Virus record (IMG/VR): IMGVR_UViG_3300049432_000156
Span: 13,366 to 77,365 of that record
DNA from: a virus
Strand: one strand, 5' to 3'
DNA length: 64,000 nucleotides
The translations under genes and the position numbers were made by a program. The first letter of the stretch is position 1. Each line of letters starts with the position of its first letter. The notes below the pieces were generated by a model that saw nothing but the letters and a program-made list of their open reading frames with translations, was not told the origin of the DNA and ran no database searches. Shown in pieces: positions 8,535 through 27,483 of the stretch.

Positions 8535-8836
8535 AACCACTCGCAACAACAAAAACCGCCGCCACTGTAATGTGCCGTCCGCAATTCAGGATCGACTGCG
8601 TTGGCGAGGAAGGCCCTCATTCTGATATGGAGAAATATGGATGGGTGCCAAGTGGGGATGACATGCTTTATCTCACAGTGAAAACCTGTGTGAATACATG
8701 GCATTGCATGGTGCCAAGAGCCGCTATGAACGCCGTGTTCGAGGCGATCAACAAAAACGGTGTCACGATTGAATTTTGCGGTTCAGATAGCCGTCAATCT
8801 CCCATGCCGCTAGACCGCCAGCCTCCGCAGCCGTGA
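8531..8836 (+). CDS. Hypothetical protein
   Basis: Last ORF of + operon, converges on giant gene. Confidence 0.45.
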   Translation: MKPLATTKTAATVMCRPQFRIDCVGEEGPHSDMEKYGWVPSGDDMLYLTVKTCVNTWHCMVPRAAMNAVFEAINKNGVTIEFCGSDSRQSPMPLDRQPPQP

Positions 8837-11800
8837 CTGTCTCGGCCTTCTTGACGCGCCCCTGAGCAAGCTACGAGTTCTCAGCCCACGCCGCAGTGAC
8901 CTTGATCTGAACCCGGAGCGCACGCCGCGCGGAGAGCCAAGAGAGAGTCGGCTGCGCGAACCGCCGAATCCTCCGATGTCGGAAAAAGCGCCTGAGCTTT
9001 CGGATGGCACCGCGCCGAAGCCGCGTCCGCCGCCGAAGCTCCGGGCTGTAGCGCCGCCTCCACCCGTGCCGTAACGGCTGGCAATCTGGTTGAAGACAGC
9101 GTTGGCCTCATTCTGCCGTCCGAGCGCTTCAGGAGTCATACGTGAGTAAATCATTTCGCGTTCGCCGTCCGTCAGCACACGGGAGAACACGGCGGACTCT
9201 GGTGCCCGCGTCCGGATAGCGGAGATGATTGCCTGCTCAGGGTTCGGATTGCCCGACGCACGACTCTGCTCAACGGCTTTGGCAAAGGCTTCGTCCGCCG
9301 TGGACCAATCTCCGACTGCCGCCGCATTCAGAATCGTGTTGTAGAGCGGAGTCATGGGCGTGACGCGCAGATCATTGCCTGACGAAGGCTGCCTTCTCTT
9401 GGCTTCCAAACTCTCCGGCGTATTGGCGCGAAGCTCATTGGCGGCGTTGCGCATCTTGACCAAACCCTCGCGTGATGGCGCCCGGTTGATGAGCGCCCGC
9501 GCCACGGGCGAGTAACGCGCCAGGAAATCCACGGCTGGCCCGGCATCACGGCTCTGGTAAATCTTAGCCATTGTTTGAAGGAGGTCCGTGACGTAGTTCG
9601 CGCCGAAGATCGGATTGCGCAGACCGAGTTTACCTGGTGTATCCTTGAACCCTTTGAAGATGCTGCCCGCCGCACCCCAGAAGTTCGCCGCAACAGAGAG
9701 CAGAATCTTCCAGCGATCATCGTCATTGTCCGCGTCCAGGAAATCCGGTTGCGATGAGATCGTGTTGAACAACGCGTCATTCGCACGCTGCCCGGGAATC
9801 CTCGCAACCAACCCGGCTATGCCCGATGCGATCAGGAAGCCGAACACAAACGGCAGATAACGCACGTCACTGCCTTTCTGGCCGCGGACCTTGGCGAACA
9901 ATTCCTGCAACTTGTCCGTGTTCCAAAGAAACCATTGGCCGAGCACACCGCCAATCTGCCGTTCTTTGCTGCCCATGAAATACGTCGGCCTGCTCGTCGG
10001 CGTGCCCATGTTCGTGTCTTCGGCCATTTTGAACTGCAACGCATACCGCTGCGCCGGGGTCATAATCGGCGCTGTGCGGTTCCCGTTGGGATGCGTCTTG
10101 TTCCACCAATACTTCAGCATGATCAGGTCAACCGGATCGTTGTTTTCCAGGAACATGTTGCGAAGCTGGACAGCGGCTTTGCGCATCGTCAGTCCGACGA
10201 TGATTGGGTCTTTGCCCGTCAATTCGGCAGGTGACAGGAGTTCACCCTTGCCATCCGGCCCGATCAAAACACCGGAGAACCGTTTGTAGTTGTCGCCGTA
10301 TTCCCGATAGAGCCTTGCGAACTCCGGATCGTTCTCAAGCCGGCTGTCGAATGCGCGCATCGCCCGGACTTCCAAAGACCTTCCAAGGCTTTGCTCCTTG
10401 GCGATGGATTTGACATTGATCCAGTTATCGACGGAGCGCATGAAGCCATGCCGCAGTAAGACTTGTCCGGCGCGCGGGATCATCCCGATGTAACCGAACG
10501 CTTCCTTGCTCCCGCTCAGACTTGGGTCGGCGTGAATGTCACGGAACGCGGCCATTGCCGCTTTGAAGTTTTCCGCCAGCGTCCATTCCGCATTGGTGCC
10601 CATCGCTTCCCGGTAAGAGAACCGGTCGATCATGCCCATCCTGGCCTGTTGCTCTCGGTCGGCAGCTTCCTGAGCCATGCCGGATACGATCTCCGTTGCC
10701 GCTTCTCTCAGGTCGCGATTGTCCAACAGCCGTTTGACGGCGTTGGTCTTCATTGCACGCAGAGCTTTAGCGCCCGGGCGAAGACTGACAGGTTCGCCTT
10801 TCCACTTCAGATACGGCACTTTCAATTCCGCCAGAGCAGCAGTTTTTATGGCCGTGCGCACCCAATCTTTTACGAGATGGCCTGTCACCCACAACCAGCC
10901 GCCTTTGCGGATCTCCGCCGTCTTCAATGCCCACATGAACTCGCCTGAAACGCCGTTCGTGATCAAAGTCATCGGTGCCAGGAGCACGTTGCTGACGGCG
11001 AAATTCCACCACGGCATGAACATCCGTGACGCGATGTCATCACCGAAGAATCCCTCGCCGCGTTTTGCGATGTCGGTGACGTTGTTTAACAACCTGCCAA
11101 TGCGGGCGATGTCCCGGTTCACCTCCCAGATCGCCATCTGATGTTTCTGCACGGACTCGTTTCCGGAGACGATGGCTGCGTTCAGCTTGCGCCGGGCCTG
11201 CCAGCCGGTGCCACCGTAAGCGTCCTTCAACGTCTTGGACAACGCGGTCTTCTCCGCGAGTAACGCAGTGTTCAACGACCGCAGGCTGTCGCGGTACTTG
11301 ATGACGTAGAATTCTAGGGCATTGGCGCCTTTGCGGAAGGCATCAACCGGGTCGGTTGTTCCGTACCGGTACAACGTGCCAGGAGCAATCTTTCCGCCGC
11401 GCGGCTGGGTGAATTCGTTCTCATGCACGGTGATGTCCACATTGGCCGCGGTCGCTTTCCTTGCGTTATCATCCGAGACCTTCAGCATGAACTCGTTCAC
11501 TTCATCAATCAGCTTTCGTCGGACTTCGCCAGCAGTTGCCGGTGGCAGTGGCGGGTCAGAGCCTGCGATTCGCTGGTTATACCGATCTGCAATGAACTGC
11601 GCTAACTCATCCAGGCTGGCCGGCATCCGGCCCTCTCTGAACAAAATCTCGCGTTCGTTCCGTATCCGTTTGTAATCCTCAGCGAATTTGCCTTGGCCAA
11701 GCTGGAAATAAGGGCGCTCGTCTTCAAGGACGTGCCCGAGCACGACGCGTTTGTACCGGTCCCCGGCGCTGAGGAATTGGTCGATCTGATTATTCTCCCG

Positions 11801-14800
11801 GGCGCTCTTCCACAACGCCGGCAGTTCACGGCTGCTCGGTGGCAGAAATCGCGGTATCGTTCCCGGCCCGCGCGACAATGGCGCCCTGAACATCCTGAGT
11901 TCATGCTCCTTGATCATGGCCGGGTCCTCGGCCAGGGCGGATTCAAACCCGGCGCGCTGCGCCAGGCGGACAAGGTGTTGCTCGAATTCGTACTGCGTCC
12001 GGATCGCCGCCATGTCTTCTTTGGTGATGACGTGTCCGAATGGTGTGTGCTCGCCGACGTTGTATAACGTCTGTCCAGTGTGCTGCCGAGAATCGTGGAT
12101 GAACGAAGCCACTTCATCGCGCCAACGGTCCAGCGTCATCCCCGGATGCGACCGCATCGCCTTCAGGTTTGTGCCCCGAATGATTTCATCGAACTTCTTC
12201 TGCAACGCATTGTTGGTCTTGAGCGCAAGCGAATAAGCGTTGCCTGCCCTTATCATCTTTAGATTGAGAGCGCCGGGTATCCTTGAAGCCGTCGTTGCCG
12301 AGATCAATCCGTACTTTGATTTGGTAACGAAATTGAACCACTTGATCGGGTTGAACCAAGACGGATCAGTCAGCCGATCGTTGTCCGCGTGCGATGCCAA
12401 GATTTGAGCATCGATGTATTCCGCGAAGTGCATCCAACCAGCGGCTTTGATTGGATCGGCATCCGGTCGCGCCGCGTATTCAAGCCCGGCATCCTTCAGC
12501 GCGTTCAGTTTCAGGAGCAATTCAACCTGCCCACCAAACCGGTAATCCACTTCAACGTCAGCGCCGGTCAACGGATGCTCGTATGTGACAACGACACCGT
12601 CCACCGTGTTCTTGATGTCCTTGATTGCGCCGGTTGCACGCTGCATTTGCTTTCCGAAAGCCACGAATTCTGGGTTGGCATCATGTTCGTTTAGGAACTG
12701 CGCGGCTGCTTCCAGATTCGCCTTCTTTTCAGTCAACGTCTCGATGCGCCGGTCGAGCCGCCGCGCAGCGGCACTGAGCGCATCGGATTCGACTTGAGCC
12801 TTGGCATACTCCTTGAGAATCGCATTGAAACCGCGCGGCGTCCTCGAACGAAGATCGTTCAGGTAATCCGCGTTGAACCGCCGCAACGTTCCGTCGGCCG
12901 TCATCTGGACTTCGAGCAATGCCTGCCGCCAATCGCCAATCTGACGAAGACCCCAGAGCGTTGCCTCGATGACATCGCGCCCAGCGTTGATGGCCTTGTT
13001 GCCTTCCGGTGTTTGGATTTGGTCAAGATGCGTTGCCAATTGGCGGACCCAGGCGCGCACCGTGAGCGGTGGCGATAACCCAGGCGAACCAGTTTGAGTC
13101 GCGATAAGCTCAAGAACGTTTTCGCCAGGCCGTTCAGCCGTCAAAGCAGCGCGCCCGACCAGCCGGGTTATTCCACTCAACGCCCGTGCGTGCGCCACGG
13201 GTTGACTGAGCAAATCATTGAGTTCAGCGATGTGTTCGATGCCTTCGCCGATGACTGCGTTGGTGTGCGCTTTCTCTCCGACAGCGATTTGTTCGGTATG
13301 GATTTTGTCGATGATTTCTCCAAGCCGATTGGTCCGTTCCACCTGCGCTTCGTTGGTTTCCGGTGTGGCCGTGATGCGGTCGGTAATCGCCTGGGCATGA
13401 TCAACGGCAGCCGCCTCCACTTTACTCAGGATTTTCAGCTTCTCCGCCTGGTACAGGTTCCATTCAACAAAGGCATTGTGTGCGTGCTCAGCTTTCTTTT
13501 CCGGCGTGATGTTCGGGTCAGCCATGACCTGGGCGAACGTTGGGCCGGTCTCGCGGTGCGTCCCAATCCTGCCGCCGAACATGTCTTCAAGCTCACCGCG
13601 GATGCCGGCGGGCAAAGCTGTGTAGCGCGGAATCACCGACGACGGCACCAACCCCTTGTTGATGACCGACGCCATTGCGCGGAAGTATTCCGGTGTCCGG
13701 GTTTCCTCCAACGGTTTGACGTACTCCTCGACGGCCTGGCGGGATTCCAGGGCGGCTTGGGTGCCCCTGCTGCGGCTTATGCTGGGAGGTTCCGCGCGGG
13801 CCTGCCCGGCAAGGATGTCCCCGATTGGGCCAGCAGCGCGATCTGCCGGTCCAGTTCTTCCAAGGCCGGCACGTCCTTGTTCCGGAATGCCGACAACTCC
13901 CGGCGCATTGACTCCAAGTGGACCTTCACCAGGCCGTGCAGCTTCACCGGGTCGTTCGGGGCCAACGGCTGAAGAAGATTGAAAACTCTCGGCACGATTC
14001 CTTGTATTGTAATTTTGGAGTCGGTCATTGATTTCATTGAATGCCTCCCAGTTTGTAGTAAAAATCTTGTCCAATGTCCCCTCAAAAATCTCGACGGGTA
14101 TGTCCGCCGAGCGGAGTCTGGCATAGTTGTTCGCGAGTTCAGCGGTAAAATCGGCTCCTTCTGTCCTGGCGGCAACGTGGGTTATTTCGTGAATGAAGAT
14201 GTGCAGAGCTTCCGATGCCGCCGCTGCCGGGCTGCTCCTACCCGCGTTGGAGAACAATCCGAGGTTGAACCATATCGCCCGCATCGGCTTTACCATGTTC
14301 AAGCCGCGATAATTCTTGTCGAAAGAGATTCCGCCGAACCATCCGGTGATCGAAGCGTCGGTGAGTTGTTCGTACTCGCCTCCAACTTTCTTGCCCCATT
14401 CGCGCATGAAGTTCAGAAGGACATTGCCGGTCTCGGTGATCAGTGTCCCGGCGCGCGGAATGTCGTCAAACTCCACGGCGACGTTGTTGTGAAGATTCGG
14501 CACAGACGGGTCCATGTCGCTCACGTCGATTTCCGTTTTCTTCAGGTCAATCTCGCGCTTTGCCTCGAAAGTCTTTCTGACGTACTCCTGCTTGCTCTCG
14601 GTGATCGCGGTTCCGTCCCTGTAGTGAATGACGACATCCGGGCCTCGAAAATCCACGGACTCAATTTCCTTCGGCTTTCTGATCGGAGGCGGCGGTTCGG
14701 ACTTCTTTCGGAAATAACGCCGCTCCATGTCGGCCATCTCTTCCGGCGTCCAATCTTTCATCGGATCAACCTTCTCCAATTGCCGAATGCTGGTGAACGC

Positions 14801-17800
14801 TTCCTTGGCCTGAAGCAGTTCCTGCTCAACCGCCATCCGTTTCAGGAACGTGTACATCGCGTCCACGTCCTCTTTGATCGTCGCGCGCCAGCCCTCCCTT
14901 TGATTGTTGAATGGGTACGCCGCGTTGTCCGTCTTCACCTTCGGGCGGACATCCAGGATGAGATTGTACGGAAGCTTCTTGTCGTTCCAGCCATAAGGAT
15001 CAGCCTCGAATTGTTTCAGCCCGGCGCTGAGAACATGCGTTGTCGGGTAGTCTCTCTTTTCTCGCGGGTCAATGTAGAGGTCGATCCTGCCCCATCCGAA
15101 ATTGAATTCGTTCTCCTTCTGCCAGCCTTCAAGTTTAACGCCGATTGGAAGTTCCGTGCCGTTGAATATCACCCGCACCGGGCCGATGAGCGGTTGAGTC
15201 AGGAAGCTCGGATAGCTGTTGAAGTAAATGGATTTCTGTTCCCCGTAGGCATCGGTGTAGTTTTCCGGAATCTTAACCGTGACCGTCGTTCCGTTCGGTT
15301 CATCGGTGCGCTCGGTCTGGATTTTGAATTTCGAGCTTCTGATTTGATCGGAGCTTGCATCCACCACCGATTTCAGCCCGTTCCGGTTGCTCTCAACCCG
15401 GATGTGTTCGGAGCCAAGAATGAACGCCATCTTCGCAAGGCCAAGCCCGCCCGAAGTATTTTCCAGCGAACCTGTCTTGTAGGTTCCGCCGATGGTGAAA
15501 AAGGCCGTGCGGATAATCTCGGGCGTCATGCCAGTGCCGGTATCCTTCACCATCAGAGTCCGATTGCTGTAATCGGTTTTGATCTCAATAGTTCCTGGAT
15601 TCTCGTAGGTCGCCCCGGCGCTGCGAGCCGTATCGAATGCGTTTTGGAGAAGTTCCTTGGTCGCCACTTCGACAATTGGCTTGCTGTACATCTGCGGACC
15701 TACCAGAGCCATCAACTGCTTCTTGTTGATGTCCAGTTCGATTTCGACATCGCCAGGACCGGCGCGCAGGATATGCGAACCTTTGTCCTTCAACTCGTCG
15801 AACTGCTCGTCGATTGCGGCTTGGGTGCCGCGTTCATGTCCCGTATGAATGTAATCTTTAGCCAGCCCGTAAGAGATAGAAGTGTCTGTGCCGAATACTG
15901 CGTTTATACCATGCTCGATAGCGTAGTCCTTGACTGCCCGTCTGGCCGTATTGGTTAAAGGTTGAGTAGCATCAACCAACAATGTGTTGCTTTTCCTGTC
16001 GAAAACTCCCCTGGCGTAGCGTTTCTTGTCCAATTGATACTCAGGAACCCCTTTACCCGGCTTGAAGTCTTCACCCAATAATCGCCTTGCGGTGAATTCA
16101 TGCTCGAACATGCTGACTGGTGTAATATCACCTTCGGGTGATACCCACATACCGGACGGACCTTCAAGGCCGGCTTGAGTGTCATGCGATAGGAATGACG
16201 TTTCTGGCGTCACATCGTATTTCCCATCCAGAATCGTCCGTTGGAGAATGTCCGCCTGCGTGCGTAGGCCGGGGACACGCTGCCGGATGGCATCAAAGAT
16301 GACCGCCAATATCTGCCGCACCTTGGACAGGAATGCGTCCTGTGATGCGAGGATTTCCTTGGCCTGACCCCAAATGCCTTGGCGGTCGCGCGCAAACCGA
16401 TCCGTCATCATGTGCGCGAAGAACTCCTCTGAACTCGACCAGTTGTAGAACTTATTGTCGATGCCTTCGTCGATGAACCGGCGGTATCCCATCTCGCCAG
16501 CAGCCAGTTTTTGAAGGTCAGCCAAGTCCTTGCCGGTTGCCGTTTGGAGCGCTCTGGCAATCGCATCATCACGCCATCGCTTCACGTTCAGCCGGTCGCT
16601 GTCCTGAACCATCTCCCAAAGCGGGTGAAAGAATTCGTGGGCGCCGACAAATGGATCACGATAACGCGCAACCTCAATAATCTGGTCCACTGGATCGTAG
16701 AATCCGGCAAGTCCACGATCTCGGCCTTGAATACCATCGACCAACCGGAATCGAATCTGACGACCATTGAGATAGCCAGCTACCGGACTGTTCAGAATAT
16801 CCCGCAGAACGGCTCTGTGTTCTTCATCCAACCCGTTTAGCGGATGCTCAACCAAAGCTCGCGCCTCTTGAATGTTCGCGGCTTCTTGAGAGTTCTGTGC
16901 GGTGCCAGGAATTCCTTCCCAGCCTTTTGGAACAGATGCTTGCAGAGGTCGTTCGTATGAATTCCTCAAACTGAAGATGTCAAAGGATTGACCTTCCGGC
17001 GTAACGCCTGTTGCGCGTCCTCTGGCATGAAGCGCCAACTTCAAATCTCTCGGCGATGTTCCTTCGGTGTCTGTGAATGGTCTGGCCTTTTCCGCCGACT
17101 CGACCATCCGCACCCAGCGTTCGTTATTCTCCAACGCGAAAATCCGCCCTTCGCGGAAGTCCTTGGCGAATTGTCTTGCCGCTTCCTCTGTGCGGAATGT
17201 CGCCACGTCCAAGCCTCGCAAATCTCCTTCCAATCCGGCAACGACGCGCCAATTTCGGGTCACTTGATCTTGCTTGTAATCCGACCACACCTGCCCCCAT
17301 CGCCTGTTCTGCGTATTCCACGACCAAATATCTGAGGCTCGTTCTCTGGCTGCATCCGCTTTTGTGCGCTCGTATGCGGCTTCCAACGCTTGTTTAATTC
17401 CTCCGGCTGCATCGACATCCGTCTGAGTCAATCCGTAAGGCAGCGGCAAATCGCTTAGTCCGCCGCCTTGAGAGATTGCCATCTGCCACTCCAAATCATT
17501 CCCGTCCTTCAACCGGCGCAGGTCATTGACCAAGGCGTCTGCCGCAGCTACCGGATCAGGAAGCTTTTTGATCTCCTCGTTCTCTCGCAGCAATTCGTCG
17601 CGGATGCCGTTCCAGAAAGCGTCATCAAGTTCTTCGGGTCGGCGGCCAAGGAGTTGTTCGACAAGTTGCGGATTCTTCTCGCGAAGGTCATCGAAAGCCC
17701 GGCGCGTGATGTCCAGCATCGGACGGCGGCCGCTCACCGGTTGGCCGACTTTCTTCTGCACCTTCGGCAGTTCTTCCAGGGGCACTGGCTGTAGCGGCGT

Positions 17801-19819
17801 CCCTGCCCCGGTCGCAGGTCTGCCGAATGGTTTAACAATGAGGTCGATGTCCTCCGGCGCGTAATGCGTCACGTTGCGGTCATCGACAATCGCAGCCTGC
17901 CGCTTCGCCTTATCGCTCAGGAAGGCCAGAACCGTCGCCTTGTCAACGTTGATGCCACCTTTGACGATCTCGTGCGGAATCTCTGCCAGCGGAATCTTGT
18001 AAGTAGCGCGCTGCGCCGGTCCTTTGATGAGCAGAAAACCCTTCTGCTTCGGATCGTAGATGACGCTGGCTGGGAAGGTGCGCCCTGTACGCGGTTCGGG
18101 CAAGCGGCGGTTGATGGCCTCAAGGGTGAACTCCGGAAGGTCGGCGGCGATGTTGTTGCGGAGGGTTATCCTCGCTCCAGCAGGTTCAACAAATTTCGTT
18201 GCTCTGGGCGCTTCCGGTGGGATGTTTACCACTCCAGTACCACCAGACGCTATAACTGAACCTTCGCGAATTCCGCTAATACGGTAAGCCTCGTCTCTGT
18301 TAACAAAACGTCCTTTATCCGTAAGAAATCCATTCTCAAACCCCGGCTTGGCTTTGCCTTGTTCGGTTATTCCGCCAATCTCACTCAGAATAAGAGGATG
18401 CAACGGGCCAGTGTATATCTCCCCTGTTGGAGTTCTAACCGCTACAGCCACTACTTTTTCGCCGCCAGTCTCCGCATCCGCTGCTTTGACTTCGGCTTGA
18501 CCCGTTCCGGCAGGTTCTTCGGGGGCTTTCCGTATTCCCGCACCCACCGTTTCGCTACCTCCGGGTGTTGGCTGAACAACAGTCTCATCTGCGCTTTTGA
18601 TCGGAATGGCACTTGGAACCTCCTTTGGTTTTGGAACTTCAATTCCCGCCTTCAACAACTGCGGTTCGGTGATGATGTCGTCAACTTTGTAAACGCCTTC
18701 GTCGGCTGGATTGACGAACTGCCGCGTGACTCGAAATTGGCGGACTGTTCCGAATGGTTCGATTTCCTCGACGGGCGGCTCAGGGATTGGTGCCGGCTCT
18801 GGCTTGACCTCGACCGGAATCCCCTGCTCCGCGGCGGACTGGGCGGCAAGGAGCCGGGCGCGCCGATAGATTCTTTCTTCCCGGACGCCTTCTGGCGTTG
18901 CGGCGTATTCCTGCTCCCGTTGCTGGGCGAAATAATCCGTGAGCCTTCCGGCCTCCTGCCGAATCGCTCCTTCATACTCGCTCGGATGCCCGGCTGCGTA
19001 GCCAAGGACGCGTGGCAAGGCAAAGACCGCATTGGCACTGAACGATTCGGCAATTGCCCGATTGCGTTCCTCTGGCGTCATGTGCGTGTACTCCGGCAGA
19101 TTCAACACCTGCCCGACTGCCTGGAGCAATGCCTGGTCAACCGTCGTTTCAATCGCCTTCTGTGCCGTCGGATTGTTCACCAATCCAAAACGGTTGATGA
19201 GACCAGCGGCAATCGGTTTCACGACCTGTCCGACGCCCAGATATAAAGCGCCAAGCGTCCCGCTCTTGACGGCTTGGTAGGGGTCTCCGGTGGCTTCATA
19301 CGTTTCTCCTGCGAAGATCGGAGGATAAACAAACGCTGGAGGCAATTTGGTTACGGCCGTAATCGCTGCCGCTGCTGCGAGGGTCGGAGCGGTTTTCACC
19401 ATTCCAATGACACCGCTTTTTAGTCCTGCCGCAACGCCCCTGTCCTTGGCCAATTCCTGTTCGTATGGCGTCGGCTGATATGTGGTTAGCGCACTGTTGA
19501 CGTTTTCCCATCCTGGTTTCCCGGACAAGACATCCTCGCCAGCACCCGCCAGAACGTTCCCAGTTGCCCGCAGACCGCGAAAGAAGGTGCCGAGTGGGTC
19601 AAAGCGTGAGACAACGTCTGCAACATCGCCTACGGTTCCAGCACCAGCCATTTCGGAACGTAACGATGCCTTCCGCGTTTCTCTGGCAATCAGGTCGTCG
19701 GCAGAAACACTGCGCCCGATGGCGTCGAGGTCCAGAGGTGGGGCGGGCTGTGGAGAATCTGCTACCGCACCAGCAGCGCGGCCAATCGCATCGAGGTCAA
19801 GGATGTCAGCATCAGGCAT
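8810..19819 (-). CDS. Giant (3669 aa) polyvalent virion/ejection protein with GHKL ATPase and two zincin metallopeptidase motifs
   Basis: KELLQNAFD/DTGTGM/GGLGLAK/GTTVTV GHKL boxes; AHEFFH...EEFFA and IHEITH HExxH motifs; last gene of tail/ejection block. Confidence 0.85.
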   Translation of the reverse strand: MPDADILDLDAIGRAAGAVADSPQPAPPLDLDAIGRSVSADDLIARETRKASLRSEMAGAGTVGDVADVVSRFDPLGTFFRGLRATGNVLAGAGEDVLSGKPGWENVNSALTTYQPTPYEQELAKDRGVAAGLKSGVIGMVKTAPTLAAAAAITAVTKLPPAFVYPPIFAGETYEATGDPYQAVKSGTLGALYLGVGQVVKPIAAGLINRFGLVNNPTAQKAIETTVDQALLQAVGQVLNLPEYTHMTPEERNRAIAESFSANAVFALPRVLGYAAGHPSEYEGAIRQEAGRLTDYFAQQREQEYAATPEGVREERIYRRARLLAAQSAAEQGIPVEVKPEPAPIPEPPVEEIEPFGTVRQFRVTRQFVNPADEGVYKVDDIITEPQLLKAGIEVPKPKEVPSAIPIKSADETVVQPTPGGSETVGAGIRKAPEEPAGTGQAEVKAADAETGGEKVVAVAVRTPTGEIYTGPLHPLILSEIGGITEQGKAKPGFENGFLTDKGRFVNRDEAYRISGIREGSVIASGGTGVVNIPPEAPRATKFVEPAGARITLRNNIAADLPEFTLEAINRRLPEPRTGRTFPASVIYDPKQKGFLLIKGPAQRATYKIPLAEIPHEIVKGGINVDKATVLAFLSDKAKRQAAIVDDRNVTHYAPEDIDLIVKPFGRPATGAGTPLQPVPLEELPKVQKKVGQPVSGRRPMLDITRRAFDDLREKNPQLVEQLLGRRPEELDDAFWNGIRDELLRENEEIKKLPDPVAAADALVNDLRRLKDGNDLEWQMAISQGGGLSDLPLPYGLTQTDVDAAGGIKQALEAAYERTKADAARERASDIWSWNTQNRRWGQVWSDYKQDQVTRNWRVVAGLEGDLRGLDVATFRTEEAARQFAKDFREGRIFALENNERWVRMVESAEKARPFTDTEGTSPRDLKLALHARGRATGVTPEGQSFDIFSLRNSYERPLQASVPKGWEGIPGTAQNSQEAANIQEARALVEHPLNGLDEEHRAVLRDILNSPVAGYLNGRQIRFRLVDGIQGRDRGLAGFYDPVDQIIEVARYRDPFVGAHEFFHPLWEMVQDSDRLNVKRWRDDAIARALQTATGKDLADLQKLAAGEMGYRRFIDEGIDNKFYNWSSSEEFFAHMMTDRFARDRQGIWGQAKEILASQDAFLSKVRQILAVIFDAIRQRVPGLRTQADILQRTILDGKYDVTPETSFLSHDTQAGLEGPSGMWVSPEGDITPVSMFEHEFTARRLLGEDFKPGKGVPEYQLDKKRYARGVFDRKSNTLLVDATQPLTNTARRAVKDYAIEHGINAVFGTDTSISYGLAKDYIHTGHERGTQAAIDEQFDELKDKGSHILRAGPGDVEIELDINKKQLMALVGPQMYSKPIVEVATKELLQNAFDTARSAGATYENPGTIEIKTDYSNRTLMVKDTGTGMTPEIIRTAFFTIGGTYKTGSLENTSGGLGLAKMAFILGSEHIRVESNRNGLKSVVDASSDQIRSSKFKIQTERTDEPNGTTVTVKIPENYTDAYGEQKSIYFNSYPSFLTQPLIGPVRVIFNGTELPIGVKLEGWQKENEFNFGWGRIDLYIDPREKRDYPTTHVLSAGLKQFEADPYGWNDKKLPYNLILDVRPKVKTDNAAYPFNNQREGWRATIKEDVDAMYTFLKRMAVEQELLQAKEAFTSIRQLEKVDPMKDWTPEEMADMERRYFRKKSEPPPPIRKPKEIESVDFRGPDVVIHYRDGTAITESKQEYVRKTFEAKREIDLKKTEIDVSDMDPSVPNLHNNVAVEFDDIPRAGTLITETGNVLLNFMREWGKKVGGEYEQLTDASITGWFGGISFDKNYRGLNMVKPMRAIWFNLGLFSNAGRSSPAAAASEALHIFIHEITHVAARTEGADFTAELANNYARLRSADIPVEIFEGTLDKIFTTNWEAFNEINDRLQNYNTRNRAESFQSSSAVGPERPGEAARPGEGPLGVNAPGVVGIPEQGRAGLGRTGPADRAAGPIGDILAGQARAEPPSISRSRGTQAALESRQAVEEYVKPLEETRTPEYFRAMASVINKGLVPSSVIPRYTALPAGIRGELEDMFGGRIGTHRETGPTFAQVMADPNITPEKKAEHAHNAFVEWNLYQAEKLKILSKVEAAAVDHAQAITDRITATPETNEAQVERTNRLGEIIDKIHTEQIAVGEKAHTNAVIGEGIEHIAELNDLLSQPVAHARALSGITRLVGRAALTAERPGENVLELIATQTGSPGLSPPLTVRAWVRQLATHLDQIQTPEGNKAINAGRDVIEATLWGLRQIGDWRQALLEVQMTADGTLRRFNADYLNDLRSRTPRGFNAILKEYAKAQVESDALSAAARRLDRRIETLTEKKANLEAAAQFLNEHDANPEFVAFGKQMQRATGAIKDIKNTVDGVVVTYEHPLTGADVEVDYRFGGQVELLLKLNALKDAGLEYAARPDADPIKAAGWMHFAEYIDAQILASHADNDRLTDPSWFNPIKWFNFVTKSKYGLISATTASRIPGALNLKMIRAGNAYSLALKTNNALQKKFDEIIRGTNLKAMRSHPGMTLDRWRDEVASFIHDSRQHTGQTLYNVGEHTPFGHVITKEDMAAIRTQYEFEQHLVRLAQRAGFESALAEDPAMIKEHELRMFRAPLSRGPGTIPRFLPPSSRELPALWKSARENNQIDQFLSAGDRYKRVVLGHVLEDERPYFQLGQGKFAEDYKRIRNEREILFREGRMPASLDELAQFIADRYNQRIAGSDPPLPPATAGEVRRKLIDEVNEFMLKVSDDNARKATAANVDITVHENEFTQPRGGKIAPGTLYRYGTTDPVDAFRKGANALEFYVIKYRDSLRSLNTALLAEKTALSKTLKDAYGGTGWQARRKLNAAIVSGNESVQKHQMAIWEVNRDIARIGRLLNNVTDIAKRGEGFFGDDIASRMFMPWWNFAVSNVLLAPMTLITNGVSGEFMWALKTAEIRKGGWLWVTGHLVKDWVRTAIKTAALAELKVPYLKWKGEPVSLRPGAKALRAMKTNAVKRLLDNRDLREAATEIVSGMAQEAADREQQARMGMIDRFSYREAMGTNAEWTLAENFKAAMAAFRDIHADPSLSGSKEAFGYIGMIPRAGQVLLRHGFMRSVDNWINVKSIAKEQSLGRSLEVRAMRAFDSRLENDPEFARLYREYGDNYKRFSGVLIGPDGKGELLSPAELTGKDPIIVGLTMRKAAVQLRNMFLENNDPVDLIMLKYWWNKTHPNGNRTAPIMTPAQRYALQFKMAEDTNMGTPTSRPTYFMGSKERQIGGVLGQWFLWNTDKLQELFAKVRGQKGSDVRYLPFVFGFLIASGIAGLVARIPGQRANDALFNTISSQPDFLDADNDDDRWKILLSVAANFWGAAGSIFKGFKDTPGKLGLRNPIFGANYVTDLLQTMAKIYQSRDAGPAVDFLARYSPVARALINRAPSREGLVKMRNAANELRANTPESLEAKRRQPSSGNDLRVTPMTPLYNTILNAAAVGDWSTADEAFAKAVEQSRASGNPNPEQAIISAIRTRAPESAVFSRVLTDGEREMIYSRMTPEALGRQNEANAVFNQIASRYGTGGGGATARSFGGGRGFGAVPSESSGAFSDIGGFGGSRSRLSLGSPRGVRSGFRSRSLRRGLRTRSLLRGASRRPRQSRLRRLAV
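13752..15829. repeat. 14-bp exact direct repeats GCGGCTTGGGTGCC (13752-13765, 15816-15829) flanking the GHKL-zincin module
   Basis: Read directly; third copy 11/14 at 16170-16183; all encode TQA(A/G)(L/I)(E/D). Confidence 0.75.
13777..14037 (-). CDS. Nested out-of-frame ORF (86 aa, helical) inside giant gene
   Basis: GGGAGG-6 nt-ATG; MKSMTDSKITIQGIVPRVFNLL...LEELDRQIALL; host frame is a G/R/A/P linker here. Confidence 0.55.
   Translation of the reverse strand: MKSMTDSKITIQGIVPRVFNLLQPLAPNDPVKLHGLVKVHLESMRRELSAFRNKDVPALEELDRQIALLAQSGTSLPGRPARNLPA
18451..18612 (-). CDS. Nested out-of-frame ORF (53 aa, MPFxSKAQ-type small basic phage protein)
   Basis: AAAGGAGGT-TCCAA-GTG; PFRSKAQMRLLFSQHPEVAKRWVREYG...LPERVK. 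Confidence 0.75.
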   Translation of the reverse strand: MPFRSKAQMRLLFSQHPEVAKRWVREYGKPPKNLPERVKPKSKQRMRRLAAKK

Positions 19820-24554: not shown

Positions 24555-25199
24555 ATGCCAAACCGAAAATCCTACATAGGGCAGAGATACGCAATGCTTG
24601 TTATCATTCGCGATGGCCCAGATTACCACTGTCCGTCTGGGGGCAAGCCGGTCCGCACATTCATCTGCGAGTGTGATTGCGGAAATATCGTGACAGTCCA
24701 CAGGACAAAATGGAGGTATACGCGATCTTGCAGACCGTGTGCTCATCTCAGTCATGGGCACGCCCGGCGAAGTGGGCTTAGCCGAACGTATCGGTCTTGG
24801 AGGAACATGATCCAGAGATGCGAAAACCCCAACTGCTTAGAATTTCACAGGTATGGCGGCGATGGCGTTACGATCTGCGAGCGATGGCATTCTTTTCCGG
24901 AGTTTCTTGCCGACATGGGCGAATGCCCTCCAAGACTCACAATCGAACGCGTCGATAATGAGGCTGGATATTTCCCGGGTAACTGCATTTGGGCGACTTA
25001 CAAAACGCAGAACAGAAATCAATCGAGCAATATCGTGCTCAGTTTTTCTGGTGTCACTGCATGTCTGGGGGAATTGTGCGAGCGTTTCAATATGCCGTAC
25101 TACAAGGTTTATTATTTGCTGTCACGCGGGTGGTCTATTGAGGATGCGTTTGCAAGATTTAGAACTCAGACTTCGCTACCGACAAGCCGACACCGCTAA
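24555..25199 (+). CDS. HNH homing endonuclease
   Basis: CECDCG, WRNMIQRC, YGGDG, FLADMG, TIERVDNEAGYFPGNCIWAT. Confidence 0.9.
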   Translation: MPNRKSYIGQRYAMLVIIRDGPDYHCPSGGKPVRTFICECDCGNIVTVHRTKWRYTRSCRPCAHLSHGHARRSGLSRTYRSWRNMIQRCENPNCLEFHRYGGDGVTICERWHSFPEFLADMGECPPRLTIERVDNEAGYFPGNCIWATYKTQNRNQSSNIVLSFSGVTACLGELCERFNMPYYKVYYLLSRGWSIEDAFARFRTQTSLPTSRHR

Positions 25200-27483
25200 T
25201 GCAGCAGCCTCCACCGAGACCGGCCACCTTCAGTCTGTATCCGAAGTAGCGGCCTCTCGCCGCAGTGAAAAACGCCGCATCCATTCCGGGTCTCGTCATG
25301 TTTGCCTGATGCTCTGCGGCGGAAAATTCACTCAAACATCTAAGCTCCACACCTTGTTCAATCACTCCATTCGGCTGAACGTTTCTCATCAGTTTCCAAC
25401 TTGGGCAATTCGGCTCTGCTGCAAAGCCGATGTAACCGTACAATAGATTCGGTGAAGTCTGCGGCTCCGCACGATAGGAAACCTTGACTTCACGGCACGA
25501 CTTTTCTCCATCAACTCGCAAGTCCTCCATGCCACTTTGGATCACAGAATCGTATCCCCTAAACACATAGAGGCCGTTGACCAATTGCTCTCGGTAGAAA
25601 ATTCCATCTTCGTATTGTTTCAAACATCGGTCGCTGGTATCTGCCATCACGAAAATTTTTCGGCCAGTGCAACCCTTGCAAAAATCCTCAGCCGTTCGAT
25701 TACCCAAGATGGCGCACAGCGAATCCGTGTCCGCCGGCAGCGACGGGTCTTCGGTCTCGTTCCAGATGCAGGTCGGGCTTGCGGTTGCTTCAACATCGCT
25801 CTCGGTTGGTTCGCCTTCCTTGATGGTCGGCGGAAGTTCATTGCGTTCGCAGACACCAAGTTCTTCCAGCCAATCCGCCACGGTCGGCAGCCGGTCGGAT
25901 TCAAAAATGCAAAAAGCCGAGAAGCCGTGATCCACGAGATCGGCGGCTTCCTGTTGCCGGGTGAGATTGAACACCAACGAGACGTTCGGGCATGAGTTGT
26001 CACCGGTTGGCCAGGACCACCAAAGCTCTTTGAGCACCGAGTTGTAACCGCCCGTGACAAGGTCGCACGCATCGTTGTTCAGGGGGCCATACGACGTTTC
26101 AAACTCGTCGATGCCGGCGAAGATGACCGGTGACGTCGCGCGCATCCAGCCGACTTCAATCGGAGACGCATCGGCCAGCGTCATCAGGAGAATCTTATCC
26201 TCGCTCAGGTAGTAAATCTGCTCGCCCGTGTTCACCAGCGAGAACTTGTATTTGCACGCATCCGGCCCACGATAAATCGTCTCGAAATTAAAAACTTCAC
26301 CGGAAGAAACCAGCGACCCGCGGTGAATCGCCTGGTCTGAGAAGCAGTAAAGATAATCACCAAGGACTTCCATCCTGAGAATCCGCTCCCCGCTACCGAT
26401 GTCTTGGAAGCCGGCCAGGGAATCGGTTGTCGGAATGAACGAGATCGGGTTCTTGTAGTCCGACCAGACGACACGGTGCGGATAGTAAGAACCGTCCTGC
26501 TCCACGTCAGCAAGGAACATGAACCCCTTGAACTCGGCCAGGCAACCGACCTTGGTGATGTTCAAATCTTCCAAGTCCGGGATCGGGCGCGCGCTCCACA
26601 AATCGCAGTTACTCCCGTCTCCGGGCTGTGGAGAGTCATCGAAATACCACCAGAGCGGAGGGTCGAAATCGTTTGAAAGTACGAGGATGTTGTCCATCTG
26701 CGCGGAGAGGAACCGGCGCTGCGAACAACCGGTGCAATCCAGCGTCGCATCGACCGTTCCTCCAAGACCGTCCGCCAGAATTCGCCAGTTGCCCGTGCGC
26801 TCGTTCAACGAATACAGACGGCTCTTTGTTCCCGCGATGAGCTTCCGGAAGTTGCGCGGACTCCTGAACTCTGCCAGATAAGTGATGGCCTCACGGCAAC
26901 CGCCTCTCACCAATGGGACTTCGCCACAGTACAGATACTCGTAACCGAAAGTCGGTGAATAGATGCCTTCATACGGTCCATACGGGTATCCTTCGGTCAC
27001 GAATCCAGACTCGCCTTCATGGCACATTGTCCGATAGTACGTGAGCGGTGGAAAATCGTAATAGAAATAGGCGAAGCACGCGTTGTTGGCCGTGACCCCG
27101 AACGGAAATGCTCCGTAAGGGTCTCCGGGGTGATTCACGTAGTCTGACGTGAAGATGTCGTACCCAGGATTGTATCCGGTCGGGTGATGATAGCTGTAGG
27201 CGTAGTGATCGAATTCACCGCCCCCCGAGAGGAAGGCCGAGTAGCCTTCGTAATATAGCTGGCTTGAAAATAATTGATCTGCCAACGATTCGTTGTTGTA
27301 GCTCTGGTTGACGCCGTCGAGAAGCTTGACCCATCCGCCGCGCCGGCATCGCTTTCCTATCGCGCGCACCGACATGTTCTTCACCAAGACGAAACTTCCG
27401 GCACCGGTTGAATCCGGCAACGATCTGATGTCAAAAAGCCCCGTCAAGGGCCTTACCGGAACCAAAGCGTATTTCGATGGCAT
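25159..27483 (-). CDS. Tail tubular/stabilisation protein (podovirus gp10/gp12-like)
   Basis: 774 aa with beta-propeller-like motifs (RVVWSD, ELWWSWP, RGRYFGYRL); position. Confidence 0.65.
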   Translation of the reverse strand: MPSKYALVPVRPLTGLFDIRSLPDSTGAGSFVLVKNMSVRAIGKRCRRGGWVKLLDGVNQSYNNESLADQLFSSQLYYEGYSAFLSGGGEFDHYAYSYHHPTGYNPGYDIFTSDYVNHPGDPYGAFPFGVTANNACFAYFYYDFPPLTYYRTMCHEGESGFVTEGYPYGPYEGIYSPTFGYEYLYCGEVPLVRGGCREAITYLAEFRSPRNFRKLIAGTKSRLYSLNERTGNWRILADGLGGTVDATLDCTGCSQRRFLSAQMDNILVLSNDFDPPLWWYFDDSPQPGDGSNCDLWSARPIPDLEDLNITKVGCLAEFKGFMFLADVEQDGSYYPHRVVWSDYKNPISFIPTTDSLAGFQDIGSGERILRMEVLGDYLYCFSDQAIHRGSLVSSGEVFNFETIYRGPDACKYKFSLVNTGEQIYYLSEDKILLMTLADASPIEVGWMRATSPVIFAGIDEFETSYGPLNNDACDLVTGGYNSVLKELWWSWPTGDNSCPNVSLVFNLTRQQEAADLVDHGFSAFCIFESDRLPTVADWLEELGVCERNELPPTIKEGEPTESDVEATASPTCIWNETEDPSLPADTDSLCAILGNRTAEDFCKGCTGRKIFVMADTSDRCLKQYEDGIFYREQLVNGLYVFRGYDSVIQSGMEDLRVDGEKSCREVKVSYRAEPQTSPNLLYGYIGFAAEPNCPSWKLMRNVQPNGVIEQGVELRCLSEFSAAEHQANMTRPGMDAAFFTAARGRYFGYRLKVAGLGGGCCISGVGLSVAKSEF

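What the first reader, a model, noticed from the sequence alone, without database searches (positions are those of the whole stretch)
13777..14037. Overprinted 86-aa gene nested at the end of the GHKL-zincin module (possible built-in inhibitor)
It lies on the same strand in a different frame, with GGGAGG-6nt-ATG. The product looks like amphipathic helices, while the giant-protein frame degenerates into a G/R/A/P linker over most of this span. It ends 11 nt before the boundary repeat, so it would travel with the module. Inference: a cognate immunity or chaperone gene hidden inside a polyprotein, which lets toxic modules carry their antidote without breaking the frame.
Basis: partly seen in the sequence, partly recalled or inferred. 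Interest (0 to 1): 0.75.

Follow-up and report, generated by a model that had tools for sequence, protein, structure and literature searches.

The report
Conserved hidden gene inside phage giant gene
A small helical protein is encoded in a second reading frame inside the gene for a 3669-residue phage protein, at the end of its Hsp90-like ATPase/peptidase module, and both reading frames have been kept by selection in at least five divergent phage lineages, so it is a real gene that annotation misses.

Summary
On the minus strand, 14037..13777 holds an 86-codon ORF in the +1 frame of the 3669-aa giant gene (8810..19819). It is preceded by GGGAGG-6 nt-ATG, and the giant frame reads as a G/R/A/P linker there. 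In this one sequence the open frame is not beyond chance (P=0.35). Comparison with relatives decides the matter.

- **Synonymous sites:** across four divergent lineages with DNA, they are saturated over the module (identity 0.31-0.40) but conserved in the overlap (0.64-0.77).
- **The +1 frame:** it has no stops and is far more conserved than the giant-frame protein implies (z=14).
- **Boundaries:** the excess starts at a conserved ATG/GTG and stops after a ~65-aa core.
- **Giant frame:** it is also conserved beyond expectation (z=9.6), so the region is truly dual-coding.
- **Fifth lineage:** a called 63-aa protein fits a 4353-aa homologue's +1 frame at 62 of 62 positions.

The product is a predicted four-helix protein of an unnamed family, found only nested in this module. 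Internal initiation is favoured over a +1 frameshift.

The parts
13777..14037 (-). Nested +1-frame ORF, 86 codons plus TAA (protein P0002).
   Evidence: It is open in all relatives.
13825..14028 (-). Conserved core of the nested protein (MTDSK...QIALLAQ, residues 4-71). This is the stretch under +1-frame purifying selection.
   Evidence: Third-position identity of the giant frame rises at about 14050 and returns to baseline at about 13820. Excess +1-frame conservation is z=6.8 in the N-terminal part and z=12.5 in the C-terminal part, against z=0.2 upstream and z=1.2 downstream. Alignment A2 has invariant L25, L41, R46, D55, A58, E61, Q65, I66 and L69.
14026..14037 (-). Two in-frame ATG start codons (14037..14035 and 14028..14026). 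Both arise from AAT-GAx (Asn-Glu, Asn-Asp) in the giant frame.
   Evidence: Every lineage has ATG or GTG at one of these two columns. L002 has GTG where the giant-frame Asn became Gly. The joint chance of this is about 9e-4.
14044..14049 (-). GGGAGG Shine-Dalgarno-like hexamer, 6 nt before the first ATG. It is encoded by Trp-Glu of the giant frame.
   Evidence: It is not conserved: relatives have TGGGAC or TGGGAT, and only L006/L007 have AAGGA.
13799..13978 (-). G/R/A/P-rich linker of the giant frame (aa about 1948-2007), read from the same bases as the nested protein's helices 2-4.
   Evidence: The end of the module model is disordered, with pLDDT below 50. The linker is still conserved beyond what the nested frame implies (z=4.7), with 0 stops against 9 expected.
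13955..15760 (-). Hsp90-like GHKL ATPase with middle domain plus HEITH zincin module of the giant protein (aa 1354-1955). Its last helix (WEAFNEINDRLQNYNTRNRAESF) overlaps the first third of the nested ORF.
   Evidence: Pfam HATPase_c_3 and HATPase_c. Module alignment A3. AlphaFold2 model of the module. Foldseek matches to TRAP1, HtpG and Hsp90 at E as low as 7.5e-10.
8810..19819 (-). Host gene: a 3669-aa polyvalent-type giant protein of a soil phage.
13752..13765 (.). Exact 14-bp direct repeat GCGGCTTGGGTGCC (GTQAA in the giant frame). Its partner lies at 15816-15829. Together they bracket the module and the nested ORF.
   Evidence: By my own arithmetic, about 0.2 such exact pairs are expected by chance in 11 kb, so significance is modest.

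Best explanation
14037..13777 (minus strand) is a real protein-coding gene nested in the +1 frame of the giant polyvalent-protein gene. It encodes a small four-helix protein of about 65 conserved residues, followed by a variable disordered tail. The protein belongs to a family with no name.

**Layout of the overlap.** The first third of the gene overlaps the last helix of the zincin domain. The rest overlaps the disordered linker that joins the Hsp90-like GHKL-zincin module to the next module. Both frames are under purifying selection.

**Expression.** The gene is most likely translated on its own. Initiation would occur inside the giant mRNA at a conserved ATG or GTG that sits in an AT-rich, weakly structured stretch. 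A Shine-Dalgarno sequence is optional in this system.

**Linkage.** The gene is welded to the 3' end of the module, so any recombination that moves the module between giant proteins carries it along.

**Function (inferred).** The product most likely acts on or with the module. It could be a non-packaged inhibitor that keeps the zincin or ATPase quiet in the producing cell, or a folding or packaging helper.

**Origin (inferred).** Codon usage suggests that over the linker the nested frame is the native one. The giant frame's linker may have arisen by reading through a small gene.

**What is shown and what is inferred.**
- Shown: dual coding and its boundaries.
- Inferred, about 0.65: independent initiation.
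- Inferred, about 0.35: partnership with the module.
For: **Synonymous-site suppression.** The comparison uses four divergent lineages: the window, L002/L004, L003/L005 and L006/L007.
- Third-position identity of the giant frame is 0.31-0.40 over about 535 control codons of the module.
- In the 78-codon overlap it is 0.64-0.77 for the three lineages closest to each other (window, L002/L004, L003/L005) and 0.47-0.53 for pairs with L006/L007.
- Four-fold sites match in 20/26 cases against 37/112 (Fisher p=5e-5). Other pairs give p from 1e-4 to 0.09.
- At the peak the order is id3 > id2 > id1, which is the signature of a +1 coding frame.

**Null model.** Synonymous codons were redrawn while the giant protein was kept.
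- The +1 frame scores BLOSUM 2.14 per site against 0.06 +/- 0.15 (z=14).
- It has 0 stops in four lineages against 3.4 expected.
- The other four frames all carry 4-21 stops.

**Boundaries.** The excess is z=0.2 in the 25 codons upstream, where there are 3 stops. It is z=6.8 and z=12.5 inside the ORF, and z=1.2 after the core.

**Closely related pairs.** Changes that are synonymous in the giant frame but non-synonymous in the nested frame run at 0.16 per site against 0.50 in the control (p=2e-6). A second pair gives 0.11 against 0.67 (p=1e-13).

**Reciprocal test.** The giant frame is conserved beyond what the nested protein implies (z=9.6), with 0 stops against 12 expected.

**Independent protein hits.** phmmer against 1.84 billion representatives finds only five clusters, with E from 7e-18 to 6e-4. 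P0021 fits the +1 frame of the 4353-aa homologue P0006 at 62/62 positions, which adds a fifth lineage.

**Relative conservation.** The nested protein has the higher alignment score per site in 9 of 10 lineage pairs, and the higher identity in 7 of 10.

**Start codon.** ATG or GTG is present in a 4-codon window in every lineage. This includes a GTG where the giant-frame residue changed. The joint chance is about 9e-4. The region is low in GC and weakly structured in most lineages.

**Codon usage.** The nested frame scores 0.34-0.35 bits/codon and the giant frame 0.02 or -0.01 in the overlap. Elsewhere the giant frame scores 0.28 +/- 0.10 and the +1 frame -0.37 +/- 0.20.

**Structure.** The model has four helices at pLDDT 74.

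**Linkage.** Homology between the giant proteins stops just after the core.
Against: - There is no direct evidence of translation. No RNA run or proteome is available.
- The Shine-Dalgarno sequence is not conserved.
- One relative on a single 9.8-kb contig (P0012/P0016) reads from the giant frame straight into the nested frame after ...AALGS. The peptide can therefore exist as a C-terminal extension, which would fit a frameshift product.
- DNA was available for only four lineages.
- Nothing links the product physically to the module. No family, fold or structure match names a function.
- The codon-usage argument for ancestry is weak. Old overprinted genes also acquire genome-like usage (PMC8227390).
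Confidence: 0.6

Rival explanations
1. The +1-frame peptide is not a free protein. It is an alternative C-terminus made by a programmed +1 ribosomal frameshift or by a fixed 1-nt shift. This would give a truncated polyprotein that ends after the GHKL-zincin module with a helical tail.
For: P0012/P0016 (1121 and 1137 aa) run ...NRAGSFKSAAALGS in the giant frame and then continue NPEELNQLVRYLKSMYREMSAFKNKDVPALEELQRQISLLGPSATS in the nested frame. The window has GGC-CCC-GAA at the equivalent point, and CCC-N is known to be prone to +1 slippage (own knowledge). The Shine-Dalgarno sequence is not conserved.
Against: - The +1-frame constraint starts about 26 codons upstream of that junction, at a conserved ATG or GTG (z=6.8 for the N-terminal part).
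- The CCC run is absent in L006/L007 (GGC ACA GAA) and is CCG in L002/L004.
- No conserved slippery or rare-codon motif lies between the last upstream +1 stop, which is 14 codons before the start in three lineages, and the onset of constraint.
- Among 1.84 billion representatives, only one cluster shows the fusion. Its two members are two start calls of one gene on a single contig, so a mutation or assembly error is as likely.
Confidence: 0.12
2. The gene is real and separately translated, but its function has nothing to do with the module. It could be an unrelated small regulator or counter-defence protein that happens to sit in a tolerant linker.
For: Disordered linkers are the easiest place for overprinting, as reviewed in PMC8227390. 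No test of binding was possible. No match suggests a function.
Against: Every homologue found carries, or is consistent with, an overlap on the same zincin C-terminal helix motif NT.NRA..F. The family is not seen free-standing or next to any other gene among 1.84 billion representatives. The ORF stays with the module while all flanking modules change.
Confidence: 0.25
3. The synonymous-site conservation reflects a non-coding constraint, and the open frame is incidental. Candidates are an RNA structure, a regulatory or recombination site at the module boundary, or recent gene conversion.
For: The stretch lies at a module boundary next to a 14-bp direct repeat. G/A/P/R-rich frames rarely create +1 stops, with P(no stop)=0.35 in one sequence.
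Against: - The conservation is frame-specific. The order is id3 > id2 > id1, and first positions are less conserved than in the control, so this is not a general rise in similarity.
- Only the +1 frame is free of stops in all lineages, with P=0.003.
- Replacements in the +1 frame are conservative, at BLOSUM 2.1 per site.
- A start codon is conserved.
- Codon usage is gene-like.
Confidence: 0.03
4. The ORF is a chance product of composition.
For: In the window alone, the open frame is expected in 35% of codon redraws.
Against: All the comparative tests argue against it.
Confidence: 0.01

Closest known systems
Lambda Rz/Rz1 embedded spanin genes (PMC6139136, PMC5295617)
   Same: In a dsDNA phage, a small gene lies wholly inside a larger one on the same strand in the +1 frame and is translated from its own internal start. 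The two products work together as a complex. This is the best precedent for a nested gene encoding a partner of its host gene's product.
   Different: Rz1 is an outer-membrane lipoprotein with a signal sequence and a lipobox cysteine. The protein here has no cysteine and no hydrophobic signal. The host gene is an 11-kb polyvalent protein gene, not a lysis gene. The nested gene also sits at a mobile module boundary.
Hepatitis B virus polymerase spacer overlapping the S gene (model reviewed in PMC8227390)
   Same: A disordered spacer that joins two domains of a large multidomain protein is read from the same bases as a structured protein in another frame. Sliding codon-usage analysis there suggested that a short gene once lay between two genes, which later fused by reading across it. 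The pattern here is the same: the nested frame has the gene-like codon usage and the linker frame does not.
   Different: This is a dsDNA phage, not a reverse-transcribing animal virus. The overlap is about 200 nt rather than about 1200. The ancestry here is only inferred from codon usage.
Overprinted genes of small viruses and phage phiX174 (B in A, E in D, K) (PMC8227390)
   Same: These are out-of-frame dual-coding regions detected by suppressed synonymous change. One of the two products is often disordered.
   Different: Those cases are explained by genome compression in tiny genomes. This record is 77 kb (CheckV completeness about 73%), so the genome is larger still and is not short of space. 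Linkage to a module is a more likely benefit than compression.
Polyvalent proteins of phages and conjugative elements with zincin-like metallopeptidase domains (Iyer et al. 2017, PMC5512222)
   Same: The host gene is a giant multidomain phage protein with an HExxH zincin domain. Homologues combine the shared module with different domains, including helicase, DdrB-ParB and phosphatase domains.
   Different: A text search of that paper found no mention of GHKL, Hsp90 or histidine-kinase domains, and its search-table entry shows no occurrence of 'overlapping gene'. A nested out-of-frame gene is therefore not part of that description, as far as I could check.
Phage tail assembly chaperone G/GT made by frameshift (own knowledge; recoding review PMC5009743, listed, not read)
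   Same: A second frame at the end of a gene supplies an alternative C-terminal segment.
   Different: No conserved shift site is present here, and the constraint starts at a start codon.

Membership tests
Out-of-frame nested (overprinted) viral gene / dual-coding region | The alternative frame is open in homologues. | tested here: met
   There are 0 stops over the core in four DNA lineages, with P=0.003 under codon redraw. A fifth lineage is added by frame compatibility at 62/62 positions.
Out-of-frame nested (overprinted) viral gene / dual-coding region | Synonymous change in the host frame is suppressed, and the suppression is confined to the overlap. | tested here: met
   Third-position identity is 0.64-0.77 (0.47-0.53 for pairs with L006/L007) against 0.31-0.40 in the control. 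Four-fold sites match in 20/26 cases against 37/112. In close pairs the rate is 0.16 against 0.50 and 0.11 against 0.67 per site.
Out-of-frame nested (overprinted) viral gene / dual-coding region | The alternative-frame protein is conserved beyond what the host frame implies. | tested here: met
   z=14. The excess is limited to the ORF, with z=0.2 upstream and z=1.2 downstream.
Out-of-frame nested (overprinted) viral gene / dual-coding region | A start codon is conserved at the onset of constraint. | tested here: met
   ATG or GTG is present in all lineages within 4 codons. The joint chance is about 9e-4.
Out-of-frame nested (overprinted) viral gene / dual-coding region | The product is detected by ribosome profiling, mass spectrometry or a reporter. 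| not testable with these tools
   No RNA holder is listed, and only the source soil metagenome holds the sequence.
Programmed +1 ribosomal frameshift product | A conserved shift-prone site with a slow codon or a stimulator. | tested here: not met
   GGC-CCC-GAA is found only in the window and L003/L005. L002/L004 have CCG and L006/L007 have ACA. GGGAGG is not conserved.
Programmed +1 ribosomal frameshift product | The new-frame constraint begins at the shift site, with no start codon needed. | tested here: not met
   The constraint begins at a conserved ATG or GTG, about 26 codons upstream of the only observed fusion junction.
Embedded spanin (Rz1-type o-spanin) | A lipoprotein signal with a lipobox cysteine. 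| tested here: not met
   P0002 has no cysteine and no hydrophobic N-terminal segment.
Immunity, inhibitor or chaperone protein cognate to a toxin or peptidase module | Tight genetic linkage to the module. | tested here: met
   The ORF is nested in the module's 3' end in every lineage, while the flanking modules differ.
Immunity, inhibitor or chaperone protein cognate to a toxin or peptidase module | Physical binding to the module, or an effect on its activity. | not testable with these tools
Immunity, inhibitor or chaperone protein cognate to a toxin or peptidase module | Similarity to a known inhibitor, immunity or chaperone family. | tested here: inconclusive
   There is no hit in Pfam, PHROGs or PDB sequences. 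Fold matches are only generic helical bundles, with Foldseek E of 1 or more and VIA Z of 8.9 or less.
Polyvalent protein (host gene) | A giant multidomain phage protein with a zincin-like HExxH domain and variable domain partners among homologues. | tested here: met
   The protein has 3669 aa, the HEITH motif and a GHKL Pfam hit. Homologues of 2377-4480 aa carry other domains. The N-terminal 390 aa of the module are Hsp90/TRAP1-like.
Polyvalent protein (host gene) | Packaged in the virion and delivered with the DNA. | not testable with these tools
   Only context is available: a PHROG 'virion structural protein' gene lies about 5 kb away (25159-27483) on the same strand, and the giant protein's C-terminus is Arg-rich.

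The most novel reading that the evidence does not exclude
The nested protein is a dedicated regulator of the Hsp90-like ATPase/zincin module. It could be an inhibitor made in the producing cell but not packaged, so that the injected module becomes active only in the next host. Dual coding welds this regulator to the module, so recombination that shuffles modules between polyvalent proteins can never separate enzyme and regulator. The polyprotein linker itself arose by reading across what was once a separate small gene. This would describe a general way in which giant phage proteins are assembled and kept safe.
Probability: 0.25. Interest if true: 0.85.

Novelty: new variant of a known kind. 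Interest (0 to 1): 0.68.

Why it matters
- **Annotation gap.** Gene finders do not call genes nested out of frame on the same strand. Such genes in large dsDNA phages are almost unknown beyond a few cases such as Rz1. This case has strong comparative support and sits in an unexpected host, a polyvalent injected-type giant protein.
- **A different rationale for overlap.** The benefit here is probably not genome compression. It is more likely permanent linkage of a small protein to a mobile enzyme module.
- **Origin of linkers.** The case gives a concrete example of how a polyprotein linker can come from reading through another gene.
- **A tractable experiment.** The nested gene can be knocked out by changes that are silent in the giant frame. 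That offers a handle on an uncharacterised Hsp90-like ATPase/zincin module found in soil and freshwater phages.

Tried and rejected
**Hypotheses tested and rejected**
- Compensated double frameshift. I asked whether the nested peptide is the ancestral in-frame sequence of the giant protein. BLASTP of P0002 against six homologues found nothing in frame (best E 0.45), and the giant-frame linker is itself conserved.
- Other frames. The +2 frame and all three antisense frames carry 4-21 stops.
- DNA repeats. The repeat finder on 8810-19819 found no long repeats among the 20 largest families shown. The 14-bp repeat was confirmed directly.

**Function searches that gave nothing usable**
- Pfam and PHROGs returned no hit.
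- The PDB profile search gave E of 0.98 or more.
- Foldseek against PDB gave E of 1 or more, with BAG-like three-helix bundles at the top.
- VIA wide search gave Z of 8.9 or less on generic helical bundles, within the tool's stated background for helical models.

**Searches for more DNA**
- Viral contigs yielded only three related contigs.
- The search with P0013 found none, and the search with P0016 found no new module.
- Metagenome contigs gave three loci.
- Genome contigs holds no prophage relative.

The contigs of P0003-P0013 and P0016 could therefore not be read.
I stopped that step and used locus references only.

**Other checks**
- Sequencing runs listed no RNA holder. Only the source soil metagenome holds the stretch. 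The 6% holder gave only short unlike pieces.
- The sigma-70 promoter scan found none. A terminator-like hairpin at 14111-14090 is within chance expectation.
Full report
**1. What is at the coordinates**

The window is part of a 77-kb IMG/VR virus record. The same sequence is held by a soil metagenome. On the minus strand, 8810..19819 is one 3669-codon ORF, P0001.
- It has a Pfam GHKL ATPase hit at aa 1383-1519.
- It has an HEITH zincin motif near aa 1877.

The finding's ORF runs 14037..13777 on the same strand and is 86 codons long, P0002. It lies in the +1 frame of the giant ORF. GGGAGG, a 6-nt spacer and ATG are present as described, and a second in-frame ATG lies 9 nt downstream. The giant frame reads as a G/R/A/P-rich stretch there. 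The ORF ends 11 nt before an exact 14-bp repeat, whose partner lies just upstream of the module.

**2. Is the single sequence more than chance?**

The open frame alone is not. When the giant frame's synonymous codons are redrawn, 35% of draws keep the +1 frame open. The giant gene also has four +1 stretches of at least 86 codons. Two compositional signals are unusual:
- Codon-position GC in the giant frame flips from the gene's 0.61/0.45/0.65 to 0.82/0.67/0.35 in 14032-13808. The nested frame therefore carries the normal coding pattern.
- A codon-usage log-likelihood gives 0.35 bits/codon for the nested frame and 0.02 for the giant frame. Elsewhere in the gene the giant frame scores 0.28 +/- 0.10 and the +1 frame -0.37 +/- 0.20, never above 0.04. 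The result is the same with a model built from other genes only.

**3. Relatives**

A protein search with the module region found six giant homologues of 2377-4480 aa at 38-78% identity. They carry different extra Pfam domains.
- The nested peptide is not present in frame in any of them. A compensated double frameshift is therefore rejected.
- The giant-frame 'linker' is recognisably conserved, as NRAESFQSS..G.ER...EQGR...GDIL.

DNA for relatives came from viral and metagenome scans. Loci L002-L007 form three further lineages at 47-51% identity. In all of them the +1 frame is open and reads as a clearly related protein. Homology between the giant proteins ends just after this stretch, so the ORF lies at the 3' edge of the shared module.

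**4. Tests of selection**

(a) *Codon positions.* Over about 535 control codons of the module, third-position identity between lineages is 0.31-0.40, and four-fold sites stand at about 0.32, which is saturated.
- In the 78-codon overlap, third-position identity is 0.64-0.77 among the window, L002/L004 and L003/L005, and 0.47-0.53 for pairs with L006/L007.
- Four-fold sites match in 20/26 cases against 37/112 (p=5e-5).
- A sliding profile rises at about 14050, peaks at 0.78 near 13867 and is back at baseline by about 13820.
- At the peak the order is position 3 > 2 > 1. This is what a dominant +1 coding frame produces, and a general rise in similarity does not.

(b) *Null model.* Synonymous codons were redrawn while each lineage's giant protein was kept.
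- The +1 frame is far more conserved than expected, at BLOSUM 2.14 against 0.06 +/- 0.15 (z=14).
- It has no stops, and it is the only one of the five alternative frames without them.

(c) *Boundaries.* The excess is absent in the 25 codons before the start (z=0.2, with 3 stops). It is present in both the first part (z=6.8) and the second part (z=12.5) of the ORF. It is absent after the core (z=1.2).

(d) *Recent change.* In closely related pairs, changes that are silent in the giant frame but alter the nested protein are three- to six-fold rarer than in the control. The rates are 0.16 against 0.50 (p=2e-6) and 0.11 against 0.67 (p=1e-13).

(e) *Reciprocal test.* With the nested protein held fixed, the giant frame is also more conserved than expected.
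- The overall excess is z=9.6.
- It is z=9.1 over the zincin helix part.
- It is z=4.7 over the linker.
- The giant frame has 0 stops against 12 expected.

The region is therefore truly dual-coding.

**5. Independent protein evidence**

phmmer of P0002 against 1.84 billion representative proteins returns only five clusters.
- Four are small called proteins of 66-98 aa, with E from 7e-18 to 6e-4.
- One is a long protein.

P0021, a member of one small cluster, is compatible with the +1 frame of the 4353-aa homologue P0006 at 62 of 62 positions. This adds a fifth lineage in which both frames are documented. Over the same bases, the nested protein has the higher alignment score per site in 9 of 10 lineage pairs and the higher identity in 7 of 10.

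The family has no Pfam, PHROG or PDB relative. I found it only nested in this module.

**6. How it is expressed**

Every lineage has ATG or GTG at one of two alignment columns that correspond to 14037 and 14028. In L002 the giant-frame Asn has become Gly, yet the nested frame keeps GTG. The chance of a +1 start in such a window in all four lineages is about 9e-4.

The start region is among the least GC-rich and least structured parts of the module in most lineages. The GGGAGG is specific to this phage. Only L006/L007 have an AAGGA. By eye, most other genes of this phage have no clear Shine-Dalgarno sequence. The conserved signal is therefore the start codon in an open, AT-rich context.

A +1 frameshift is the main rival, because P0012/P0016 read from the giant frame directly into the nested frame after ...AALGS. 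Three points count against it:
- That case is two start calls of one gene on a single 9.8-kb contig.
- The candidate CCC site is not conserved.
- Selection on the nested frame begins about 26 codons upstream of that junction.

I put internal initiation at about 0.65 and a frameshift at about 0.12.

**7. What the two products look like**

AlphaFold2 on the 12-sequence alignment gives four helices, at residues 4-12, 14-25, 30-49 and 56-73, with pLDDT 74. The tail at 74-86 is disordered. That tail is also the part that varies in length, with total length ranging from 63 to 119 aa among relatives, and it is not under detectable selection. Fold searches return only generic helical bundles.

The module model has mean pLDDT 64. 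It shows an Hsp90/TRAP1/HtpG-like N-terminal and middle region (Foldseek E 7.5e-10), followed by a helical zincin part. The last helix, WEAFNEINDRLQNYNTRNRAESF, is the stretch that overlaps the first third of the nested ORF. After it the chain is disordered. This explains why the giant frame is strongly constrained in the first part of the overlap and weakly in the second.

**8. Likely function and origin (inference)**

The nested gene accompanies the module in giant proteins whose other domains differ, and it has not been seen anywhere else. The simplest reading is that its product works with the module. Lambda Rz/Rz1 is a precedent for a nested +1 gene whose product binds the host gene's product (PMC6139136, PMC5295617).

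Polyvalent proteins are thought to be processed by their zincin domains before or after delivery (PMC5512222). A small inhibitor that is made in the producing cell and not packaged would be one way to time that activity. A folding or packaging helper is another possibility.

Codon usage favours the nested frame as the native frame over the linker. This resembles the model proposed for the hepatitis B polymerase spacer and S gene, in which a large protein arose by reading across a small gene (PMC8227390). The criterion is weak for old overlaps.

**9. Verdict**

The Shine-Dalgarno sequence is incidental. The inhibitor or immunity role remains a hypothesis. This is a new variant of a known kind of arrangement, an out-of-frame nested viral gene. 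It encodes a new protein family, sits in a new type of host gene, and suggests a new rationale for the overlap, namely linkage to a mobile module.

Noticed in passing
Proteins P0012 and P0016 (relative on a 9817-nt metagenome contig): In this relative the GHKL-zincin reading frame runs ...NRAGSFKSAAALGS and then continues in the nested frame to ...QISLLGPSATS. This is equivalent to a 1-nt shift at the codon after Gly. It could be a real truncated variant with the nested peptide as a C-terminal domain, or a mutation or assembly error. The contig could not be fetched.
   Followed up: partly
13752-13765 and 15816-15829: The exact 14-bp direct repeat GCGGCTTGGGTGCC (GTQAA in the giant frame) brackets the module plus the nested ORF, 2064 bp apart and in frame. 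By my own arithmetic, about 0.2 such pairs are expected by chance in 11 kb. Earlier first-reader notes also describe it.
   Followed up: partly
13979-15958 (+): A 659-codon ORF lies antisense to the module. It is not conserved: relatives have at most 120-209 stop-free antisense codons there. It is most likely a by-product of codon bias.
   Followed up: yes
Whole window (gene starts listed): By eye, most predicted genes have no clear Shine-Dalgarno sequence upstream. The record comes from a soil metagenome, has no tRNA genes in the window and no relatives in 185,579 reference genomes. The host is unknown and probably makes little use of Shine-Dalgarno sequences.
   Followed up: partly
13955-15760 (-), giant protein aa 1354-1955: The first 390 or so residues of the module match Hsp90-family structures (TRAP1, HtpG, GRP94), N-terminal plus middle domains, at Foldseek E of about 1e-9, and topoisomerase II ATPase regions slightly less well. 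A text search of the 2017 polyvalent-protein paper found no mention of a GHKL or Hsp90-type domain.
   Followed up: partly
14090-14111 (-): A terminator-like hairpin followed by ATTTTTGAGG lies about 50 nt upstream of the nested start, inside the giant gene. The count is within the shuffled expectation (2 found, 1.5 +/- 1.3 expected).
   Followed up: no
18451-18626: Another first-reader note proposes a second overprinted 53-aa gene here. My one quick translation of those coordinates contained stops, but I did not establish the right frame or coordinates, so this says nothing about it. At 70-codon resolution, no other part of the giant gene shows gene-like codon usage in an alternative frame.
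   Followed up: no
Homologues P0004-P0008: The same module sits at very different positions: aa 23 in P0005, 298 in P0008, 1151 in P0004, 2058 in P0006 and 2397 in P0007. It occurs beside helicase (PF13872, PF04851), DdrB-ParB (PF18763) or phosphatase (PF00300) domains. This is clear module shuffling among giant phage proteins.
   Followed up: partly
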